Origin: Octopus sinensis
Taxonomy: Eukaryota
DNA: 64,000 nt
Direction of reading: 5' to 3'
Assembly: GCF_006345805.1 (NCBI RefSeq)
Contig: NC_042998.1
Span: forward strand, 145,080,001 to 145,144,000
In this document: piece by piece, positions 5,913 through 64,000 of the stretch
How positions within the stretch are numbered: position 1 is the stretch's first letter
Layout of the letters: every line of letters starts with the position of its first letter
Position numbers and translations under genes: made by a program
Notes under the pieces: model-generated
Told to the model about the DNA's origin: nothing
Seen by the model: the letters and a program-made list of their open reading frames with translations, nothing else
The model's database searches: none

Positions 5913-8900
5913 CTTGTTTGTGAAAGAGAAGTTGCTATTCTTGTTTAGACAAGAAATGGGCTTGGCTGAAAATAGATATGTACTGGTTGCAGTTATGAAT
6001 TGAGGTTCCTTTGACATAAAATTTGAAGTAAGGCAAATTGTGGTCATCCATACATGCAGACTTGTCCTTCACAGGTGCCAGTGCCACATGAAATGCACTC
6101 GTGTCAGTGGTGCACATGTGCTGGTGGCACGTATGAAGCACCCATACACTCTGTAAAGTGGTTGACATTAGGAAGGGCATCCAGCTGAAGAAACCATGCC
6201 ACAACAGACAACTGGGGTCTGAACAGCTCCTTCAAACCATCTAACCCATGCCAGCATGGAAAACAGATGTTGATGATGATAAATGGTACAAATATAAAAG
6301 TTAGAATTGGGAGAAAATGTTTGTCACAGTTTTAGAGGTTAACTACACTAGATTGTTGAAATGAGTTAGGAAGGTTACCTGTTGTTTATCGCATATGAAA
6401 GTTTGGTGTAACAAGTGGCAGAATTGTTGGAGTATTGGGAAAAATGCCTTGCAGTATTTCTTCTGACTGTTGACTGTTTATGTTCTGAGTTCACTTCCCT
6501 CTGTGGCTTTAATGAAACCATATGGGGCCAGCTGTTTAGACATAGATGATATGGCATAACTGACTGGACATTGAGCATGTCTTGCTGACAGTATTTAATG
6601 TGGTGCTGGAGGCAAACATATGCATGCATGCAGAAATGAGGGAGAGAGAGAGAGAGAATGAGAGAAACATTAAAACATCCTATGTGAAATAAATCTATAT
6701 TGGATCAGTGATCCCAAATGGCACCAAAATGTCTTCTCATACTCCTTGGTGGTAAATTTTGCTTTTCATCCTTTTGTAAGGGTCAATAAAATAAAGTGCC
6801 AGTCAAGTACTGGGGTTTATATATTCAACTACACCCTTCCCCCAATTTCAAGCCTTGCTTTTAGAGGTGGTGGTGAGATAAGCTTGTTTTTTAGTACACA
6901 TTTCTGTGACTTGACTATCTGCGGGTCAGCCCTGATTGAACTGGCTTCTAGTGTTCTGTTCGGTCTTTTTTTTCCAAATGTATTTAGAACTAAAATTATC
7001 CAACACATCCTTTTTGAAATGCGATAGGATATGGTTCGAAGGACATTTCTTTGTTTCTAGTATAGATGTTCTTTTCTTAGTTCATTCATTGTGATCTGAT
7101 TTTAGCTAATTGTGTAGTCTTTACATTTTCTCTTCTTTGTGGCAAAGACATACCCATTAACTTAGCTGATGACTAATTTATAATCTTTCTATGGATAATT
7201 AGTAAACTAAGTAAAATTACCATAATAATTTGGAAAAATATGATACATGTTCATCATCATTGTTTAACCATATAGCATTCAGATTGCTCTGCTAAATGCA
7301 GTGCTTTTTTATTCACAGTGTTTAGAATTAATCATGTATTGTCTCATAGCTTTGAGATTTTGATGATGTTATTGTCTGTGTTTGGAATGACATTGTAGCA
7401 TATGTGTGAGAGGCCAAATCTGGCCGATTTGAATGTAAAACAGGAAGAATATTTGAGCCAGATATGGCCTGATTAAATGCTAAAGGGTCAACATCTGCTT
7501 GGCATGCTAGCATGGGTTGGACAGTTTGGCAAGACCCTGCGAGCTGCAGGGCAATGTTGAGCACCAGTGTTAGCATAGGCATGGTTTCTGTGGCTGGATT
7601 CCCTTCTTAATGCTAACCACTTTACAGTGTGTACTGGGCACCTTTTTTGTGCCACTGGCAGAAGTGAGGTTACTGAGTGACTTGCAAAACTGAAAAAAGA
7701 ATAGGAAAAAGTGAAAAAGCCCCCTCAACTAAGTGTATGTGTGGTTATTTGAGAGGCAGGGAAGGTGGTTTCATGCTAGTTATTGAGAGGCTAAAGAACG
7801 ATACAGGGATAGACCCAGATGTCATGATTTAGAAGAGATATATAGCTACTTTGCATTATGTAATGATGGGAGTAGCTGGAAAGAAAATAAAGATGGTAGT
7901 GATGAGATGCCAGGGTATCTCAATATACAAAAAGCCGAGTATGAGAGGACAGTGGATCAGGGATGGGTAGAGAGGGGTAGTTTCATAGGATTGTAAGGGG
8001 GAAAGTAATGGACCCCCCCTTCTTTAACTCTTTAGCATTTAAACTAGCCAATTCCGGCCCAAATATTCTTCTTATTTATCTTCAAACTGGCTATATGTGG
8101 CCTCTCACACCTAACTCACTATGTCAAACAAACATATCATCAAAATCTTAAAGCTGCAAGATAATGATTAATACAAAACAATGTGAATAAAAATGCTTTA
8201 CATTAGACAATAATCTGAATGCTAAAGGGATTAGAATGCTGCTTGGTTTACCTGTACTCACTGATTTGAAGTCTATTTACAGGAGAATTTATTTATCATC
8301 ATCTTTGTTTTAACAATCTACTTCAACACACTTACATAGATTAGATGAGTGTTTTGAGGCAGGGTTTTTCTACAGTTTGATGTATTTCCTGTTGCCAACT
8401 CCTACTTGTTCCATGTTTCCAACTGAGGTAATAATCTCCTGGTCTGTTAAACCACAAACAACCCAGACATAGTTATGTGGAGAATTTGGAACCAATGACA
8501 CTGTAAGAACAAGCTTTTAGCTTACAAAGATACATTTTACGTTTTCCTTGTTTCACTCCTCTGATTGAGGCCATACTTGGACACTACCTTGAAGAATTTT
8601 AGTTGAATGAATCAACCCCAGTACTTTTTCAATTTTTAAGCCTGGTACTTAGTCTGTCTGTCTCTTGCTGAACCACTAAGTTACATGGATTTAAACACAC
8701 CAACATCGATTGTCAAGGGGTGATGGGGGGACAGATACAAATACACACACACACATAGATAAATATATATATATATATAGCACCGCAAGTCGATGACAAC
8801 ACTGCATGACTGGCACCCGTGCTGGTGGAACGTTAAAAGCACCATCCGGGTGTGATCATTGCCAGGGCCGCTGACTGGGCCCTGTGCTGGTGGCACATCA

Positions 8901-10581
8901 AAAGCACCATTCAAGCATGATCGTTACCAGCGTCACCTTACTAGCACTTGTACCGGTGGCATGTGAAAAACATTTGAGCAAGGTTGTTGCCAGTGGCGCT
9001 GGACTGGCTCCTGTGCAGGTAGCACATAAAAAACACCATTTGAGCGTGGCCATTGCCAGTACCACCTAACTGGCTCTCATGCTGGTGGCACGTAAAAGCA
9101 CCCATTACACTCTCAGAGTGGTTGGCGTTAGGAAGTGCATCCAGCTGTAGAAACTCTGCCAGATCAGATTGGAGCCTGGTGCAGCCATCTGGCTCGTCAA
9201 TCCTCAGTCAAACCATCCAACCATGCCAGCATGGAAAGCGAACGTTAAATGATGATGTATTTGACAGGCTTCCTTCAGTTTCTGTCTATCATATCCACTC
9301 ACAAGTCTTTGGTCAGCCTGAGGCTAAAGTAGAAGATACTTGCCTAAGATGTTGTGCAGTGGGACTGAATCTGGAAGGTTGGGAAACAAACTTCTTACCA
9401 CACAGCCACACTTGTGCCTAGTGTAACATTTGAAAACATATCAAGAAACTGGGACATGCTTTCACGTAGGGAAGACATTGCTTACAAGGGGAGCTTCTTT
9501 CAGTTTCCGTTTATGAAGCTTTTGTTTATGGGCTGCAGTAGCAGACACTTTATCCAAAGTGCCTTGTCATAGAACTAAACCTCAAACCATGCACTTGGGA
9601 AATGAACTTTTTAACCACTCAGCCATGCCTGTGCTTAAAATTCAATGCAAACCAATGAAAAAGAATTGATAAACATTTTTGCTACATTATAAAAACATTT
9701 GCTAATCCCTTTTTTTTTTTTTTCATTATCAAACTTTAACCAAAGTTCAGAATTAGTTTAGCAAATGAAATACTGTTTCTTAGGCAATGTTAATTTATGT
9801 AAGTTTTTATTTAAAACATTTTTAGTTTGGTTTCCAGTTTTGATTTTTGTTGTTTATATGTGAACTTGCTGTGACTGTTAGTATTTTGATATTTTCTTAA
9901 CAGCAAAACTAAAAAAAAACATTATTCTTCATGATGATGATAGTGAACATAGCTTCTTCCTTCCTCAAAATTTCTCTAAGCATTCTAATACATTTGTTGA
10001 AATCTTTTCTTTTTCCAGTTTTCTGTGAAATATTGTATTTTGTCATGTCTTATGTTTGGTCTTTATGTGATTTTCCTGTTTTGGATTTCACTTCCTGAAA
10101 TTTCTTCAACTTTTTTTTCTTTCATTCCTGTTTTCCTTCCTCTTAAAGTTTTTGCGTGTGTTTTTGGTGACATTACTAGGTTAAAACCGGAAATGATTTT
10201 TGTTAGATCACTATGAGGATTTTATATTTTAAACTGTTGATTTAAAAAAAAAAATTATTTTGTCTTCTTGGCTGTGTGGTTAATTTTGCTTCTCAAGCAC
10301 ATGATTTGTTTCAGTCTCACTGTGTGAGACCTGGGACCAATATCTTCTTCTATAGCCCTGGGTGAACCGAAGCCTTGTGAGTGGATTTGGTCAACAGAAA
10401 CTGAAGGAAACCCATTTGTGTGTGTGTGAGTGTGTGTATTACGGAGATGTACTTGCATAGCAAGTGACCTGATCTGAGATCGTGTGCTGGGATGAAAACA
10501 GTTGCAGCGTGGAAGGTGTTTATAAGCCATTTAAGAAACACACAAAAACCATTAGATTCACTTCAACATTTAAATTTAATT

Positions 10582-12116: not shown

Positions 12117-13590
12117 CAAAATAGATGAACATCAATGGAATCTGTATCTTTGTGGTACCAGTGCCGGTGGCACACAAGAGAACCATCCGAACGTGGCCGT
12201 AGCCAGTTCCGCATCGACCGGCCTCCGTGCTGTGGGCACCTAACAAACACCATCCGATCATGGCCGTTCGCCAGCCTCATCTGGCACCTGTGTCGGTGGC
12301 ACATAAAAACACCTTCCGAAGACCCGGCAAGACTAGTCAGTCCACCTGTGCATACCTTCCTTCTTGTGACACTTGTGAAGACCTGTTGAGGCAAGTGAAA
12401 ATCAAATTAAATCAAAATAGATAAACATCAATGGAATTTGTATCTTTGTGGTACCAGTGCCTGTGGCACACAAGAAATCCATCCGAACGTGGCCGTAGTC
12501 AGTACCGCATCGACTGGCCATCGTGCTGTGGGCACATAACAAACACCATCCGATCGTGGCCGTTCGCCAACCTCATCTAGCACCTGTGTCGATGGCACAT
12601 AAAAACACCATCCGAAGACCCGGCAAGACTAGTCAGGCCATATCCCATGGCCCCTACCTGGGACGTAGTCAGTCCACCTGTGCATACCTTCCTCCTTGTG
12701 ATACTTGTGAAGGCCTGTTGAGGCAAGTGAAAATGAAATCAAAACAAATCAAATCAAATCAAAACAAAACAAATCAAAATAGATGAACATTAATGGAATT
12801 GTATCTTTGTGGTACCAGTGCCGGTGGCACACAAGAAAACAATCCGAACGTGGCCGTAGCCAGTACCGCACCGACTGGCCTCCGTGCTGTGGGCACGTAA
12901 CAAACACCATCCGATCGTGGCTGTTCGCCAGCCTCATCTGGCACCTGTGTCGGTGGCACATAAAAACACCATCCGAAGACCCGGCAAGACTAGTCAGGCC
13001 ATAACCTGTGGCCCCTACCTGGGACGTAGTCAGTCCACCTGTGCATACCTTGCTTCTTGTGACACTTGTGAAGACCCGTTGAGGCAAGTGAAAATCAAAA
13101 CAAATCAAAATAGATGAACATCAATGGAGTTTGTATCTTTGTGGTACCAGTGCCGGTGGCACGTGGCACACAGAAAACCATCCGAACGTGGCCGTAGCCA
13201 GTACCGCATCGACTGGCCTCCATGCTGTGGGCACGTAACAAACACCATCCGATCGTGGCCGTTTGCCAGCCTCATCTGGCACCTGTGTCGGTGGCACATA
13301 AAAACACCATCCGAGCGTGGCCGTCTGCCAGCCTCGTCTGGCACCTGTGTCGGTGGCACATAAAAAACACCATCCGAGCGTGGCCGTTTGCCAGCCTCGT
13401 CTGGCACCTGTGTCGGTGGCACATAAAATCACCCACTACACTCTCGGAGTGGTTGGCGTTAGGAAGGGCATCCAGCTGTAGAAACACTGCCAGATCTGAC
13501 TGGACTGGTGCAGCTTTCGGGCTCCCCAGACCCCAGTTGAACCGTCCAACCCATGCTAGCATGGAAAGCGGACATTAAATGATGATGATA
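12117..13590 (+). repeat. Tandemly expanded 3' end of an RTE LINE (about 4 units of ~300-360 bp) ending in (GAT)n
   Basis: aaaatagat.aacat.aatgga recurs at ~12118, 12414, 12776, 13107; sequence matches the ORF end/3'UTR at 57293-57924. Confidence 0.88.
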
Positions 13591-34982: not shown

Positions 34983-37301
34983 TCATCATCATTTAGCGTC
35001 CGTTTTCCATGCTAGCATGGGTTGGACGGTTTAACTGGAGTCTGGGGAGCCCGAAGGCTGCACCAGGCCAGTCAGATCTGGCAGTGTTTCTACAGCTGGA
35101 TGCCCTTCCTAACGCCAACCACTCCGAGAGTGTAGTGGGTGATTTTATGTGCCACCGACACAGGTGCCAGACGAGGCTGGCGAACGGCGACGCTCGGATG
35201 GTGTTTTTATGTGCCACCGACACAGGTGCCAGACGAGGCTGGCAGACGGCCACGCTCGGATGGTGTTTTTATGTGCCACCGACACAGGTGCCAGATGAGG
35301 CTGGCGGACGGCCACGATCGGATGGTGTTTGTTACGTCCCCAAAGCACGGAGGCCAGTCTATGCGGTACTGGCTACGGCCACGTTCGGATAATTTTCTTG
35401 TGTGCCACCGGCACTGGTACCACAAAGATACAAATTCCATTGATGTTCATCTATTTTGATTTGTTTTGATTTGATTTAATTTTCACTTGCCTCAACAGGT
35501 CTTCACAAGTGTCACAAGAAGGAAGGTATGCACAGGTGGACTGACTACGTCCCAGGTAGGGGCCACGGGTTATGGCCTGACTAGTCTTGCCGGGTCTTCG
35601 GATGGTGTTTTTATGTGCCACCGACACAGGTGCCAGATGAGGCTGGCGAATGGCCACGATCGGATGGTGTTTGTTGCGTGCCCACAGCACGGAGGCCAGT
35701 CGATGCGGTACTGGCTACGGCCACGTTCGGATGGTTTTCTTGTGTGCCACCGGCACTGGTACCACAAAGATACAAATTCCATTGATGTTCATCTATTTTG
35801 ATTTGATTTGATTTGATTTTCACTTGCCTCAACAGGTCTTCACAGGTCTTCACAAGTGTCACAAGAAGGAAGGAAGGTATGCACAGGTGGACTGACTACG
35901 TCCCAAGTAGGGGCCACGGGTTATGGCCTGACTAGTCTTGCCGGGTCTTCGGTTGGTGTTTTTATGTGCCACCGACACAGGTGCCAGATGAGGCTGGCGG
36001 ACGGCCACGATCGGATGGTGTTTGTTATGTGCCCACATCACAGAGGCCAGTCGATGCGGTACTGGCTACGGCCACGTTCGGATGGTGTTTCTTGTGTGCC
36101 ACCGGTACTGGTACCACAAAGATACAAATTCCATTGATGTTCATCTATTTTGATTTGGTTTGATTTGATTTGATTTGATTTGATTTTCACTTGCCTCAAC
36201 AGGTCTACACAAGTGTCACACACTTGCCTCAACAGGTCTTCACAAGTGTCATAAGTAGGAAGGTATGCACAGGTGGACTGACTACGTCGCCGGGTCTTCG
36301 GATGGTGTTTTTTGTGCCACCGACACAGGTGCCAGATGAGGCTGGCGAACGGCCACGATCGGATGGTTTTCTTGTGTGCCACCGGTACTGGAACCACAAA
36401 GATACAAATTCCATTGATGTTCATCTATTTTGATTTGGTTTGATTTTCACTTGCCTCAACAGCTCTTCACAAGTGTCACACGTGTCACACACTTGCCTCA
36501 ACAGGTCTCCACAAGTGTCACACACTTGCCTCTGCCTCAACAGGTCTTCACAAAGTGTCACACACTTGCCTCTGCCTCAACAGGTCTTCACAAGTGTCAC
36601 ACACTTGCCTCAACAGGTCTTCACAAGTGTCATAAGAAGGAAGGTATGCACAGGTGGACTGACTACGTCGCCGGGTCTTCGGATGGTGTTTTTATGTGCC
36701 ACCGACACAGGTGCCAGATGAGGCTGGCGAACGGCCACGATCGGATGGTTTTCTTGTGTGCCACCGGTACTGGAACCACAAAGATACAAATTTCATTGAT
36801 GTTCATCTATTTTGATTTGGTTTGATTTTCACTTGCCTCAACAGGTCTTCACAAGTGTCACACGTGTCACACACTTGCCTCAACAGGTCTCCACAAGTGT
36901 CACACACTTGCCTCTGCCTCAACAGGTCTTCACAAGTGTCACACACTTGCCTCTGCCTCAACAGGTCTTCACAAGTGTCACACACTTGCCTCAACAGGTC
37001 TTCACAAGTGTCATAAGAGGGAAGGTATGCACAGGTGGACTGACTACGTCGCCGGGTCTTCGGATGGTGTTTTTTGTGCCACCGACACAGGTGCCAGATG
37101 AGGCTGGCGAACGGCCACAATCAGATGGTGTTTGTTGTGCCCACAGCACGGAGGCCAGTCGATGCGGTACTGGCTACGGCCACGTTCGGATGGTTTTCTT
37201 GTGTGCCACCGGTACTGGAACCACAAAGATACAAATTCCATTGATGTTCATCTATTTTGATTTGGTTTGATTTTCACTTGCCTCAACAGGTCTTCACAAG
37301 G
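34980..37301 (-). repeat. Tandemly expanded RTE 3' end (about 6 units), reverse orientation
   Basis: cattgatgttcatctattttg recurs at ~35438, 35780, 36132, 36412, 36794, 37238; (CAT)n tail at 34980; reverse complement of the 12117-13590 array. Confidence 0.9.
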
Positions 37302-57317: not shown

Positions 57318-57924
57318 GTCCACAACCCGTGGCCTTCTACATGGGATGGAGCCAGCCTACGTATGCATACCTTCCCTTCTTGGGACACAAAACTCTACTT
57401 GTGAAGATGTGTTGAGGCAAGTGAGGATCAGAATCGATATCGATCAATGGAAATTGCGGATGTGCTACCAGTGCCGGTGGCATGTCGAAACTCTGCTTGT
57501 GAAGACCCATTGAGGCAAGTGAGGATCAGAATCGAAATCGATCAATGGAAATCGATCAATGGAAATTGCAGATGTGTTACCAGTGCCGGTGGCATGTAAG
57601 AGAACTTTCCGTTTCGCGACCGTTGCCAGCACCGCCCCGTTTCGTGTCCGTTGCCAGCCTCGCCTGGCCCTCGTGCCGGTGGCACATAAAAAGCACCATC
57701 CGTTCGTGGCCGTTTGCCAGCTCTGTCTGGCACCAGTGCGGGTGGCACGTAAAAAGCACCCACTACACTCACGGAGTGGTTGGCGTTAGGAAGGGCATCC
57801 AGCCGTAGAAACACTGCCAGATTTGACTGGGCCTGATGAAGCCTTCTGGCTTCACAGACCCCAGTAGAACCGTCCAACCCATGCTAGCATGGAAAACGGA
57901 CGCTAAATGATGATGATGATGATG
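55419..57924 (+). mobile_element. RTE-clade LINE, 5'-truncated (endonuclease absent), with ~600-bp 3'UTR and (GAT)n tail
   Basis: Open RT frame followed by a 3'UTR ending ggacgctaaa(tga)n at 57907-57924; lies in the intron after SHMT exon 6. Confidence 0.95.
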
Positions 57925-59337: not shown

Positions 59338-59571
59338 ATCATCATCATCATCATCAACGTTGAACGTCCGTTCTCCATGCTAGCATGGGTTGGACGGTTC
59401 GACCGGGGATCTGGGAAGTCAGAAGGCTGCACCAGGCTCCGGTCTTATCTGGCAAGGTTTCTACAGCTGGATGCCCTTCCTAACACCAACCACTCCGTGA
59501 GTGTAGTGGGTGCTTTTTACGTGCCACCTGCACTGGTGCCAGGCGAGGCTGGCATCGGCCACGGTCGGATT
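59338..59571 (-). mobile_element. Short 5'-truncated RTE 3' tail; similar copies at ~6060-6280(+), 7490-7660(-), 8780-9257(+), 14790-15030(+), 28176-28540(-), 31570-31730(-), 32925-33265(+), 39285-39432(+), 44150-44330(+), 44880-45120(-), 48051-48266(-), 58208-58390(-)
   Basis: Shared gagtggttggcgttaggaagggcatccagctgtagaaac...ccaacccatgctagcatggaaa.cggacgttaaa(tga)n. Confidence 0.88.
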
Positions 59572-60844
59572 GTACCTATTCAATAAGATTTAGCTTTACA
59601 AACTATCTCCCAATTTGAATTATACTTAATTCCTTTAGATTTCAATTCCCATATATATTTGCTAAGGCCAGTAGAATTAATCAATGTTTTATTCTTAAAT
59701 GAATGAATGTGTTGAGCCACCCTTTGTTTAATTTTATTAGATTTTGACCCCACGTAAATCGCATTTAAATAACTATTCCTATTAATATCATCAATCAAAG
59801 TCACTACACATTTATATACTACATCATCCAAATTACATTTATTTTAAAATTTACATTTTGTCTTATCTCTGCATGTACAATTAAGTATATTCTGGTCTTT
59901 ATTATTATTGAATAATCATTTAATTTGTTAATGTAAAACTTATTCAGCTTAAATATATTAAAAGAAGAAATAATGTTACCAACATTATTAGTAGTAGAAT
60001 AATCAACTCCAAAATTATTACTAGGAAAAATGCTATTATATTTTTTATTACCTATAATGAATACTTCAATTATAGTTTTTATTATATATTATGAATACTT
60101 CAATTAGTTTTAATATCTCATTAAAACATTAATAAAATGTTTGTTTTAACTTGAGCCCTATAAGGATTAATTAACCAAATTTTGTTCTTATTATCATTAA
60201 ACAAATTAAATTCATTCTTACCTTTTAGTCTTTTATTATATTTTTTGTATTGTCATAATACCTATTATTAAAATCATAATTAACTAAATAAAACTTATAA
60301 TTGTTAATATTAGGTTTATTATTATAAATATGATAGGAATTATTTATATTATAATCTTTTATATTATAATTATATTTACAATTATTAAAGAATTTAATAC
60401 TATTATTATATTCCGCCTCCCACAAGGCTTCATTATAATAAGGTGCATGTTTTTGGAAAATCTCAAAATTAGAAGAAAGCTTCGATATTCTTTTACCTAT
60501 ATTATCTATCAACGATTTCTTGAGGGTGGGTGATTACTATTAGTATTGATATATCTAAAGTTTTCATTAATTTTATGGAATGGTTGGGTTTTACCTGTTA
60601 TTAAATTAAAATTACCATCTAAATAATTAATATTATAGTTCTCTTCATATATAGCAATACCTAATCCATATCTTTAAAAAAAAACTATATAGCTTCTTCT
60701 TATACAATTTTAGTGTTCTATTGGTGCAATTCTTGGTTATTATAAAAGGTCATCTCTATATAATCCACCCACATCAGATGCCATGATGGTGCTAAGGTTT
60801 GGGTACGGGTGATCAAACTCTGTATATGGAGTAGACAAACAGCG

Positions 60845-61391: not shown

Positions 61392-61647
61392 AGTTATTCA
61401 TTTAATGCTTTCTTGCATTTCTGTGTGTGTGTGTGTGTGTGTGTGTAGTTATTCATTTAATGCTTTCTTGCATTTCTGTGTAAGTTTTGTAAGAAGTTTC
61501 TTATTAACCACCTTGTTTAAGATTCAGTGCCACTGAATCGTACCTTGGACACCCATCTTCTATTATAACCCTGAGGCAAAACGTTGGAAGTGGATTTGTC
61601 AGATGTAATCTTGAAGAAGGTCATATAATATATATATATGTATATAG

Positions 61648-62226
61648 AATATTGTAAACATCTTTATTTTTCATTCCCTTCAAAATTGCTCTTAACCGTG
61701 GTTTGAATTTTGACTGTTCCTTCTAGCATGTAAGGCCTTCTGTGATGGTCACCTATTTTGTGTTTAAATGTATACTCATTTTATATGAAAAATATGTTGT
61801 CTGTTGACTATTTTATACATGCTAGCTACTAGTAGAAAAATTTCTATCATTCTTCCTACTCTGTATATTTTCTTAATATGATTTTAGCATTTTTTGAAGT
61901 AATTTGACATTTTCATTCACCACCTACTAAAATTGCTCTTGCGTGGTGAATTTGAAAAATTATAATATATAAATATGAGACGTGCGATTTTGTCTCCTAA
62001 TTACATGTGAACTTGTGGCACTCCCGCTGAAGGGAACTTCAGTTGTTTTATTTGTTAACTAAAGTTCAAAACCTAGGTACGGGAGGTAAATATTGTAAAT
62101 GTTTTTATTTTTCATTCCCTTCGAAATTGCTCTTAACCGTGGTTTGGACTTTGACTGTTCCTTCTAGCATGTAAGGTGTCTTGTTATGGTCACCACTTTT
62201 GTGTTTAAATGTACACCAATTTTATA
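61648..62226 (+). mobile_element. Hammerhead-containing partial tandem element (441-bp period) between (TA)n tracts
   Basis: ~138-bp diverged direct repeat at 61648-61786 and 62089-62226, with the hammerhead immediately before the second copy. Confidence 0.7.
62021..62085 (+). ncRNA. Hammerhead ribozyme, core-mutated
   Basis: CUCCCG-CUGAAGG-GAACUU...AAGUUC-AAAA-CCUAGG-UA-CGGGAG; 6-bp stem I, 6-bp stem II, palindromic stem III; A9G and G12A. Confidence 0.72.
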
Positions 62227-62934
62227 TATATATGTTTGTGTGTGTGTGTTAGTGTGCGAGGGTGTGTTACAGTTCCCTTGCCTTGACATTGTGTGATAGT
62301 TGTAAATGAGTATCACTGTCATGCATGCAGTGTCTTTCACTTCCAATCTTTTGTGAAGACATGTGTAGACATGGAACCAAATTACCTCCCTTGGAGAAAT
62401 ACGAAGGTTGGCAACAGGAAGGACATCCTGCTGTAGAGAAGCTGTGTAAAAGAATTCCATATGACCCATGCAAGCTTGGGAAAGTGGATGTTAAACCATT
62501 ATGCTGCTGTTGATATATGATAAAATACAATAGTTCAGTTATAAAATGTTTGTGACTGTTTTATGTGTTTCTGAGAACAAAAGTATGTTTCTTATTACCA
62601 TGCAGCATTGCACTTTATACCTATAGGTTGAACTGGTAAGAGAGACAAAAAGCTCAATGGCTCACAAAAACATTTGAAAATGATTTAGCAATGTTTTGAG
62701 GTTCACAAAGAAGACCATAGCAGCCTAGTAAGTTGTTGACTCTTGCTGTCTTAGAAGACAGTTGTCTAAAGTGGTGTGGAGTGGGATTGAACCTGAAACT
62801 GTGTGGCTGTGAAGTGAAACATCTTAACTACACAGCCATGCCTGTGCCTATATGCATGTATGCCTATATGTGTCTGTGTTTGTATATGCATGTATGTTTG
62901 TCTCTCTCTCTCTCTCTCTTTCTCTCTATACTAT

Positions 62935-62999
<65 letters not shown>

Positions 63000-64000
63000 G
63001 ATAAACTAGATGTGTACATGCTTGTATGTGTATATGTTTGTGCATGCATGTGTATATATATAGAGGTGTACATATTTGAGTGTGTATGTGTATGCATACA
63101 TGAATATTAATGCGTTGTGTGTGTTTGTATGTAAGTGTGTGTGTATAATATCTAAAAGGAGCTCTCTAGAAAGACATTAGGTGTAACTTAATCATGCAAT
63201 TCAATTCACTCTGTAACTTTTTATCGTTTCTCCCCTCCCTTTTCCTCCACCTCCTCTGCCGTATCTTCACATCAACATAAGGTTTATTTTGAAAGATGAT
63301 CTTGCGAAATCCTGTAAAAGTGTTAAGTGCCAATTTCAAAAATTGTTTCTTCATCTTGGCGCAATTCCCTGTCATTTTTGTCAGTTTTCATATTTTTTCA
63401 CTTCCATTATGCTTGTTTAACCATGCGAAAAATTCTAATATAGCATCTGTTTTGTTTTTTTTTTTGAGAAATTTTTTTAGTCTATATACATTTTTCATTA
63501 TATTATTTTTGTATTTTCTTCATTGTTTTATTATATTTTGTTCATTTTACCTTTTCTGTTCTTGTCATCATATGTTCGTTTTCCATGATTGCATGGGTTG
63601 TATGAAGTTTGTTGAGGTAGATATTTTTATGGTTGGATGCCCTTTCTATCACCAACCCTCACCTGTTTCCAAGTTAGCCATATTTTCCCATGACCAGACA
63701 TGCTTTTGCAGAATATTGGAAATGAATGACACTGCTTGTATGACAGTGACACTCAATTACAACTATCAAACAATATTATGACAAGGTGACACACACACAT
63801 TCATACAATGGGTTTCTTTTAGTTTCTATCTATCAAATTCACTCACAAGGCTTTGGTTGGTCTAGGGCCTTAGTAGAAGACACTTGCCTAAGGTGCCATC
63901 TAGTGGGATTGAACCTAAAACCATGTGTTAGTTGAATGTATATTACTGAACCATTTTTTTTACAACCAGATGCCCTTCATGATGCCATATTATGAATATG

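What the first reader, a model, noticed from the sequence alone, without database searches (positions are those of the whole stretch)
61648..62226. Retrozyme-like 1.3-mer: 441-bp period whose repeat restarts just after a hammerhead cleavage site
Seen: a direct repeat starts at 61648 and again at 62089, 10 nt after the predicted GUA cleavage (62079); no coding capacity; (TA)n on both sides. Established: non-LTR retrozymes are few-hundred-nt hammerhead monomers that form circular RNAs and integrate as partial tandems. Inference: cDNA of a ~440-nt circular RNA copied slightly more than once around.
Basis: partly seen in the sequence, partly recalled or inferred. Interest (0 to 1): 0.7.

Follow-up and report, generated by a model that had tools for sequence, protein, structure and literature searches.

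The report
Decayed Penelope-type hammerhead retrozyme copy
This is a decayed copy of a non-coding repeat, found at over a hundred places in this animal genome, that carries a hammerhead (self-cutting RNA) motif and was likely pasted into TA microsatellites by the enzyme of Penelope-type jumping genes; it belongs with a known class (animal retrozymes), and whether its RNA template was a circle is untested.

Summary
A 139-bp repeat (123/139 identical) recurs after 441 bp, restarting 10 nt after a type I hammerhead site (cut after 62079), with no ORF and TA-rich flanks. This copy's ribozyme is likely dead (G12A, A9G), but relatives keep the core and show compensatory stem changes.

The family is dispersed (127 non-redundant loci) and has Penelope-like (PLE) anatomy: two fixed 3' ends (67 of 80 copies), variable 5' truncation, (TA)n targets and inverted second arms. 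In 22 of 26 classifiable two-armed insertions one arm ends at each site (p=5e-4). No coding PLE carrying this unit was found.

The 'circle copied 1.3 times' is not shown. The two repeats are coherent within each locus, which fits a circle. But 11 of 24 whole-unit arms stop just after the upstream cleavage site, and no long arrays occur, which fits a linear, once-cut tandem RNA slightly better. RNA-seq shows few reads, on both strands, with no ends at the cut site.

The scan noted similar two-armed families before, in this genome and others. Verdict: new member of a known kind.

The parts
61625..61647 (.). Short imperfect (TA)n 5' flank (likely target microsatellite; no TSD discernible)
   Evidence: sequence
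61648..61786 (+). Upstream repeat (unit positions about +10 to +148 after the cleavage site); 5' end of the insertion
61787..62020 (+). Unrepeated middle of the 441-bp unit; holds the second, 'long' 3'-end site used by other copies (about 61875-61885, model position ~243)
62021..62085 (+). Minimal type I hammerhead: stem I 62021-62026/62080-62085, core 62027-62033 (A9 replaced by G), stem II 62034-62039/62062-62067, 62068-62071 (G12 replaced by A), palindromic helix III 62071-62078, predicted cut after 62079; likely inactive in this copy
62089..62227 (+). Downstream repeat, the 'short tail', ending at the family's commonest fixed 3' end (model position ~151); inferred reverse-transcription start site
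62223..62250 (.). TA then (TG)n 3' flank; the element's end merges with it
   Evidence: sequence; family statistic

Best explanation
The stretch is an old, one-armed, 1.3-unit copy of a dispersed 440-460-bp non-coding hammerhead repeat (a non-LTR retrozyme, that is a non-autonomous Penelope-like element) that was likely inserted into a (TA)n run by a borrowed PLE reverse transcriptase, likely from a linear tandem RNA cut once at its upstream hammerhead. Shown: copy dispersal, hammerhead core and covariation in relatives, two fixed 3' ends, 5' truncation, inverted second arms with complementary ends, (TA)n preference, no ORF, core mutations in this copy. Inferred steps: (1) a source locus with two hammerheads is transcribed; (2) the palindromic helix III lets them fold as a double hammerhead, and a cut at the upstream one leaves an RNA that starts at +1 and holds an uncut downstream hammerhead; (3) a PLE RT/GIY-YIG protein nicks (TA)n and starts cDNA inside the RNA at position ~151 (or ~243), the other DNA end often priming at the other site to give an inverted arm; (4) here the cDNA ran back through the hammerhead and one whole unit, ending 10 nt short of the RNA's 5' end; (5) the copy then decayed. 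Confidence in the class (PLE-mobilised retrozyme-type element) is about 0.85; the number given is for the whole account, including the linear template.
For: Dispersal: 55 matches from 40 scored of 3002 candidates; exact patterns give 30, 54 and 35 hits, controls 0; 127 non-redundant loci. 3' ends: 49 of 80 at m140-160 and 18 of 80 at m226-246. (TA)4 at 53 of 80 3' ends against 98 of 1600 control windows. Two-armed insertions 40 of 102; 22 of 26 classifiable pair a short with a long end, 4 short/short, 0 long/long, Fisher p=4.6e-4. These match PLE hallmarks: an inverted 5'-truncated copy, a tail at one end only, (TA)n bias (PMC8557442 passages), and two internal RT starts with both strands extended (PMC11167929). 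Hammerhead: core intact in 50 of 75 parsed copies (sets partly anchored on the core, and the regex misparses some); 86% of cells paired, 7 of 12 pairs with two-sided change; helix III self-pairs at about -13 kcal/mol. For a linear template: 11 of 24 whole-unit arms stop at about +1 to +17 after the upstream cut site (L008 and L213 at +1), against 5 of 25 stopping (at +10 to +25) at the downstream junction; 12 of 13 arms that pass the upstream junction end within 125 nt, against 20 of 55 for the downstream one, p=3e-4. No long arrays were seen. Coding Neptune-like PLEs with their own minimal hammerheads are abundant in the genome.
Against: The stop asymmetry alone is not significant (p=0.07). 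End positions were read partly by hand, and several whole-unit copies came from a query that began at +10. The two repeats of a locus are much closer to each other (mean 0.122) than to repeats elsewhere (0.229, equal for upstream-upstream, downstream-downstream and mixed pairs; 16 loci), so the repeats were homogenised at least when each subfamily arose. A purely linear cycle does not explain that without template jumps or local duplication; a circle does. No partner PLE sharing this unit was found. RNA reads run across the cut site with no pile-up of ends. Hammerhead cleavage was not needed for PAc insertion in vitro (PMC11167929).
Confidence: 0.45

Rival explanations
1. One reading: same element class, but the template was a ligated circular monomer. 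A PLE RT started at position ~151, went once round and continued by strand displacement to +10.
For: Repeats are coherent within a locus and form no upstream or downstream lineage; they are sister pairs in L005, L015, L016 and L120 (short alignment, rough supports). 20 of 25 tail-anchored copies read seamlessly through the cleavage junction. Circles are shown for coral, mussel and axolotl retrozymes (PMC7229834).
Against: A circle gives no reason for more stops at the junction on the second pass than on the first (11/24 against 5/25, weak), or for nearly all arms ending within 125 nt past it. No multi-lap arrays appear in the loci mapped; the only 2.3-mer (L112) has two units 99% identical but a 94% tail, which looks like a later local duplication. 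Only 64-82 reads per ~1.8 Gb, on both strands, unlike the abundant retrozyme RNAs in the paper, though library selection is unknown.
Confidence: 0.35
2. The unit is the tandemly repeated terminal region (pLTR/3' UTR) of an as yet unfound coding PLE, and all copies seen are its 5'-truncated ends.
For: The anatomy is that of PLE ends. In Xenopus 24 of 57 retrozyme families match Repbase elements, nearly all PLEs, at their termini (bioRxiv 10.64898/2026.07.22.740005). My partner search covered only 79 of many thousands of PLE loci, 59 of them with 1.5-kb flanks, while one coding family has its hammerhead ~2.8 kb past the stop codon.
Against: No locus has a same-strand PLE ORF upstream of the unit (three protein probes on 150 fetched loci). 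No unique sequence is shared at the 5' ends of 127 loci. Whole-unit copies continue into another unit, not an ORF. The coding PLEs examined have different hammerheads and do not match the unit profile.
Confidence: 0.13
3. A local duplication or chance hammerhead-like motif with no mobile history.
For: No Rfam hit; the window's core is imperfect; local duplications of the unit do occur (L025/L026, L112).
Against: The same 1.3-unit form with the same 3' end recurs at many unlinked loci; core and stems are conserved with compensatory changes.
Confidence: 0.02

Closest known systems
Metazoan non-LTR retrozymes (Cervera and de la Pena 2020, PMC7229834: passages and Discussion read; Li, Clavereau and Pollet 2026, bioRxiv 10.64898/2026.07.22.740005: parts 1-3 of 5 read, covering all main text)
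   Same: Type I hammerhead in a few-hundred-bp, low-GC, non-coding unit; dispersed monomers and partial tandems; co-occurs with PLEs; PLE machinery proposed as the mobiliser.
   Different: Mostly shorter than 1.5 units rather than dimers to long arrays; this copy has one, mutated, hammerhead and would not count as 'active' under Li et al.'s two-hammerhead rule; no abundant RNA or circle seen; two fixed 3' ends and complementary two-armed insertions are not described in the text I read.
EN+ Penelope-like elements: PAc/Poseidon of Anolis (PMC11167929, parts 1-2 of 4 read); Neptune and Naiad (PMC8557442, passages read)
   Same: Partial tandem with a terminal direct repeat, two fixed 3' ends, inverted 5'-truncated arm, AT/(TA)n targets, hammerhead near the end.
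   Different: No RT or GIY-YIG ORF; the two end sites are ~92 nt apart rather than a 30-40-bp tail; both ends are TA-like and merge with the target, whereas PAc initiation was reported as non-homologous to the cut DNA.
Minimal PLE hammerheads (min-HHR; Cervera and de la Pena 2014, PMC4209133, part 1 of 4 read)
   Same: Short helix I, longer helix II, 1-2-bp helix III with a palindromic loop suited to a dimeric fold.
   Different: Here in a non-coding unit; one subfamily has U at position 3 while keeping G8, not the U3-A8 pair reported for Schistosoma.
Non-autonomous Chlamys elements such as MRC1 (PMC8557442, passage read)
   Same: Non-coding PLE derivatives that form pLTRs and head-to-tail insertions.
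   Different: Those resemble their autonomous families at the 3' end and mostly lack hammerheads; no such partner was found here.

Membership tests
Non-LTR retrozyme | Type I hammerhead motif in the unit | tested here: met
   Met for the family; the window copy has A9G and G12A, and G12A slows cleavage over 500-fold (PMC2553840 passages)
Non-LTR retrozyme | Small (about 150-1000 nt), low-GC (<45%), non-coding monomer | tested here: met
   441 bp, 31% GC, longest stop-free stretch 47 codons
Non-LTR retrozyme | Tandem units with a hammerhead in at least two consecutive units | tested here: inconclusive
   Not met in the window (one hammerhead); met at a few loci such as L009, L016, L039, L112; no long arrays
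Non-LTR retrozyme | Dispersed copies, co-occurring with PLEs | tested here: met
   coding PLEs
Non-LTR retrozyme | Self-cleavage of the transcript | not testable with these tools
   needs in vitro transcription
Non-LTR retrozyme | Accumulation of monomeric circular RNA | tested here: inconclusive
   64-82 reads per ~1.8 Gb in three raw RNA runs, both strands, no ends at the cut site; 6% of each run read, library selection unknown, species match to G000 not established
Autonomous EN+ PLE | ORF with RT and GIY-YIG endonuclease | tested here: not met
   No ORF in the element; none upstream on the same strand in fetched loci
PLE-type insertion (mode of spread) | Fixed 3' ends at two internal RT start sites, variable 5' truncation | tested here: met
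   67 of 80 3' ends at two sites; 5' ends spread
PLE-type insertion (mode of spread) | Inverted 5'-truncated copy next to the upstream end | tested here: met
   40 of 102 insertions; absent from the window copy
PLE-type insertion (mode of spread) | Insertion bias for (TA)n or AT-rich DNA | tested here: met
   53 of 80 against 98 of 1600 controls; the element's own end is TA-like, which inflates this somewhat
Non-autonomous PLE derivative | Sequence homology to the pLTR of a coding PLE | tested here: inconclusive
   No such match in 50 + 29 PLE loci (the one strong hit is a neighbouring copy on the opposite strand); the search was far from exhaustive

The most novel reading that the evidence does not exclude
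The family's ends record how a PLE enzyme uses a hammerhead RNA. A double hammerhead cuts only once, making a 1.3-1.5-unit RNA that starts at the cut site, and a PLE RT dimer primes both DNA ends on it at two fixed TA-like sites 92 nt apart, one site per end. That would give the ribozyme a defined role (setting the template's 5' end) and would mean that some 'retrozymes' spread without a circle.
Probability: 0.25. Interest if true: 0.6.

Novelty: new member of a known kind. Interest (0 to 1): 0.36.

Why it matters
The link between animal retrozymes and PLE enzymes, and the circular template, are proposed in print but not shown mechanistically. The complementary two-arm ends here give genomic support for PLE-type mobilisation and name the two start sites to test in vitro. 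The family also allows circle and linear templates to be told apart by mapping ends. This copy itself is an old, probably inactive relic, and better, younger examples exist in the same genome according to earlier scan notes (unchecked), so its stand-alone value is modest.

Tried and rejected
Rfam scan: no hammerhead hit, only microsatellite-driven miRNA matches. Pattern searches gave 0 hits because my gap ranges were too long or too short; one search corrected the first, and one search found no short-stem-II variant with that exact loop. Pfam did not recognise the PLE endonuclease fragment or the 859-codon frame; its RT and GIY-YIG identity rests on motifs I recognise from memory (YRDD, CxC-x4-C, YIG). 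Partner search: the young Neptune-like family and an older endonuclease family have their own, different hammerheads. L115/L141, where the long tail joins a 5'-truncated same-strand PLE ORF, was considered as an autonomous form and rejected: no unit follows that ORF. It may be a template switch or a nested insertion; 1 of 80. A pile-up of short-arm 5' ends near position 243, which a twin-primed circle would predict, is not convincing (6 of 38 in m235-256; not formally tested). The run index listed no holder on record as RNA. The tail tree has few columns and unsettled supports. One search miscounted L126 as a stop; one search gives the corrected figures. Literature: no description of this family or of complementary two-arm ends turned up in searches (open-access library only; bioRxiv supplements not visible, and repeat databases such as Repbase or Dfam could not be searched, so the family may already be catalogued). 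A look-up of earlier scan findings by this sequence found nothing.

Full report
Observation. The repeat is real: 61648-61786 and 62089-62227, 441 bp apart, 123 of 139 letters identical. Between them lies a type I hammerhead topology (62021-62085) with the predicted cut after GTA at 62079, so the second repeat starts at +10. The element has no ORF (longest stop-free stretch 47 codons) and is 31% GC. The flanks are a short imperfect (TA)n on the left and TA then (TG)n on the right. Rfam gives no hammerhead hit. The window's core has G at position 9 and A at position 12. G12 is the general base, and G12A slows cleavage over 500-fold in minimal and about a million-fold in full-length hammerheads (PMC2553840, passages). 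The G12A change fits CpG decay (inference). This copy is therefore likely inactive.

The family. A search of the own genome scored 40 of 3002 candidates and gave 55 matches at 73-93% identity, apart from one at 66% and the window itself. Exact patterns on the core, on a sister subfamily and on the tail gave 30, 54 and 35 hits with 0 in reversed controls; a distal fragment gave 40. After removing duplicates I held 127 loci. The true number is probably near a thousand or more (inference; not counted). That the host is a cephalopod comes from earlier scan notes and my recall of its repeats; I did not test it. Relatives keep the core: 50 of 75 parsed hammerheads pass (two of the sets were anchored on parts of the core, and the regex misparsed several, the window's included). 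On 18 hand-picked copies from the main subfamilies, 86% of cells pair and 7 of 12 pairs change on both sides, all 4 in stem I (relatedness inflates the shuffle test, but slid controls fall to 12-51% paired). Helix III is a palindrome that self-pairs at about -13 kcal/mol, the feature linked to dimeric folding in PLE hammerheads (PMC4209133, part 1).

Anatomy of insertions. I mapped a unit profile (position 1 = first base after the cut) on the loci. Of 80 non-redundant copies, 49 end at m140-160 and 18 at m226-246; the window is a short-end copy. (TA)4 lies at 53 of 80 3' ends against 98 of 1600 control windows. 5' ends vary. Of 102 insertions 40 carry an inverted arm at the 5' end. I saw that inverted arms end at the same two sites (20 of 28); earlier scan notes on other families prompted the pairing test. 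Of 26 classifiable cases 22 pair one short with one long end, 4 are short/short and none long/long (p=4.6e-4); 14 were unclassifiable. The window copy has no inverted arm. These are PLE hallmarks: partial tandems, an inverted truncated copy, a tail at one end only and (TA)n bias (PMC8557442, passages), and two internal RT starts with both strands cut and extended (PMC11167929).

Is it a pLTR? Coding Neptune-like PLEs are abundant and carry their own minimal hammerheads with different loops. None of 50 + 29 such loci had the unit as its end. Three protein probes on 150 fetched loci found no same-strand ORF upstream of a unit, and 127 5' flanks share only common repeats and microsatellites. In L115/L141 the long tail joins directly to a 5'-truncated PLE ORF, but no unit follows that ORF, so it is a template-switch chimera or a nested insertion. 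The partner is unidentified and the search was limited.

Circle or linear template. For a circle: in 16 two-repeat loci the repeats differ by 0.122 on average within a locus against 0.229 across loci, with no upstream or downstream lineage; four loci form sister pairs in a rough tree; 20 of 25 tail-anchored copies read through the cut junction. For a linear RNA: 11 of 24 whole-unit arms stop at about +1 to +17 of the upstream cut site, against 5 of 25 at the downstream one (p=0.07); 12 of 13 arms that pass the upstream junction end within 125 nt, against 20 of 55 (p=3e-4) (ends read partly by hand, and some copies chosen by a query starting at +10). No multi-lap array was seen; the 2.3-mer L112 looks like a later duplication. 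Strand displacement on a circle could also raise drop-off in the second lap, so this is not decisive. I favour a linear, once-cut tandem RNA (0.45) over the circle (0.35). The double-hammerhead single-cut step is my inference.

RNA. The run index listed no holder on record as RNA. In three raw RNA runs (6% of each read) 69-82 reads fit the window's monomer and 64-75 a relative's, on both strands, with no drop or pile-up of ends at the cut site. This looks like passive transcription of many copies. Library selection and the species match are unknown, so it does not exclude a circle.

Comparison and verdict. It works like a non-autonomous PLE, and the family meets the testable sequence features of animal non-LTR retrozymes (PMC7229834, passages and Discussion; bioRxiv 10.64898/2026.07.22.740005, main text, which argues that such retrozymes derive from PLEs). 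Cleavage and circularity are untested, and the window copy fails the two-hammerhead criterion. Searches found no description of this family or of complementary two-arm ends; supplements of the preprint and repeat databases were not visible. The scan had noted the same two-arm pattern in other families, in this genome and others (unchecked notes). New member of a known kind; interest 0.36.

Noticed in passing
window 59571-60769, minus strand: Broken remnant of a Neptune-like PLE ORF (RT and endonuclease pieces, 61-73% identical to a younger family), about 900 bp upstream of the element and on the other strand; no link to it seen.
   Followed up: partly
L141:4122-7540 (G000:C2, about 10583600-10587000): The long-tail end of a sister-subfamily unit is joined without a microsatellite to a 5'-truncated, same-strand Neptune-like ORF (residues 97-855 of the probe): candidate template-switch chimera or nested insertion.
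   Followed up: partly
L111-L140: A sister subfamily has U at hammerhead position 3 with G8 kept, an extra A before GAAA, and compensatory changes in stems I and II.
   Followed up: partly
L144:8685-8735; also L092, L095, L101, L103, L104, L146, L188, L192, L206: Several coding PLE families carry their own minimal type I hammerheads, in L144 about 2.8 kb past the stop codon and about 100 nt before a (TA)n end.
   Followed up: partly
window 12409-13314, 35256-36367, 36192-37139: Partial tandem arrays of 351-381-bp period with 62-66-bp subrepeats, related to repeats at 8807-9102 and 57641-57760; a generic hammerhead scan of the window found none in them.
   Followed up: no
L112:1074-2114: A 2.3-unit copy whose two whole units are 99% identical while the tail is 94%, suggesting a recent local duplication or an assembly artefact.
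   Followed up: no
window 62752-62805 and 63874-63927; 62263-62374 and 63688-63799: Two further pairs of dispersed repeat fragments (direct, 80%; inverted, 77%), probably common SINE-like repeats.
   Followed up: no
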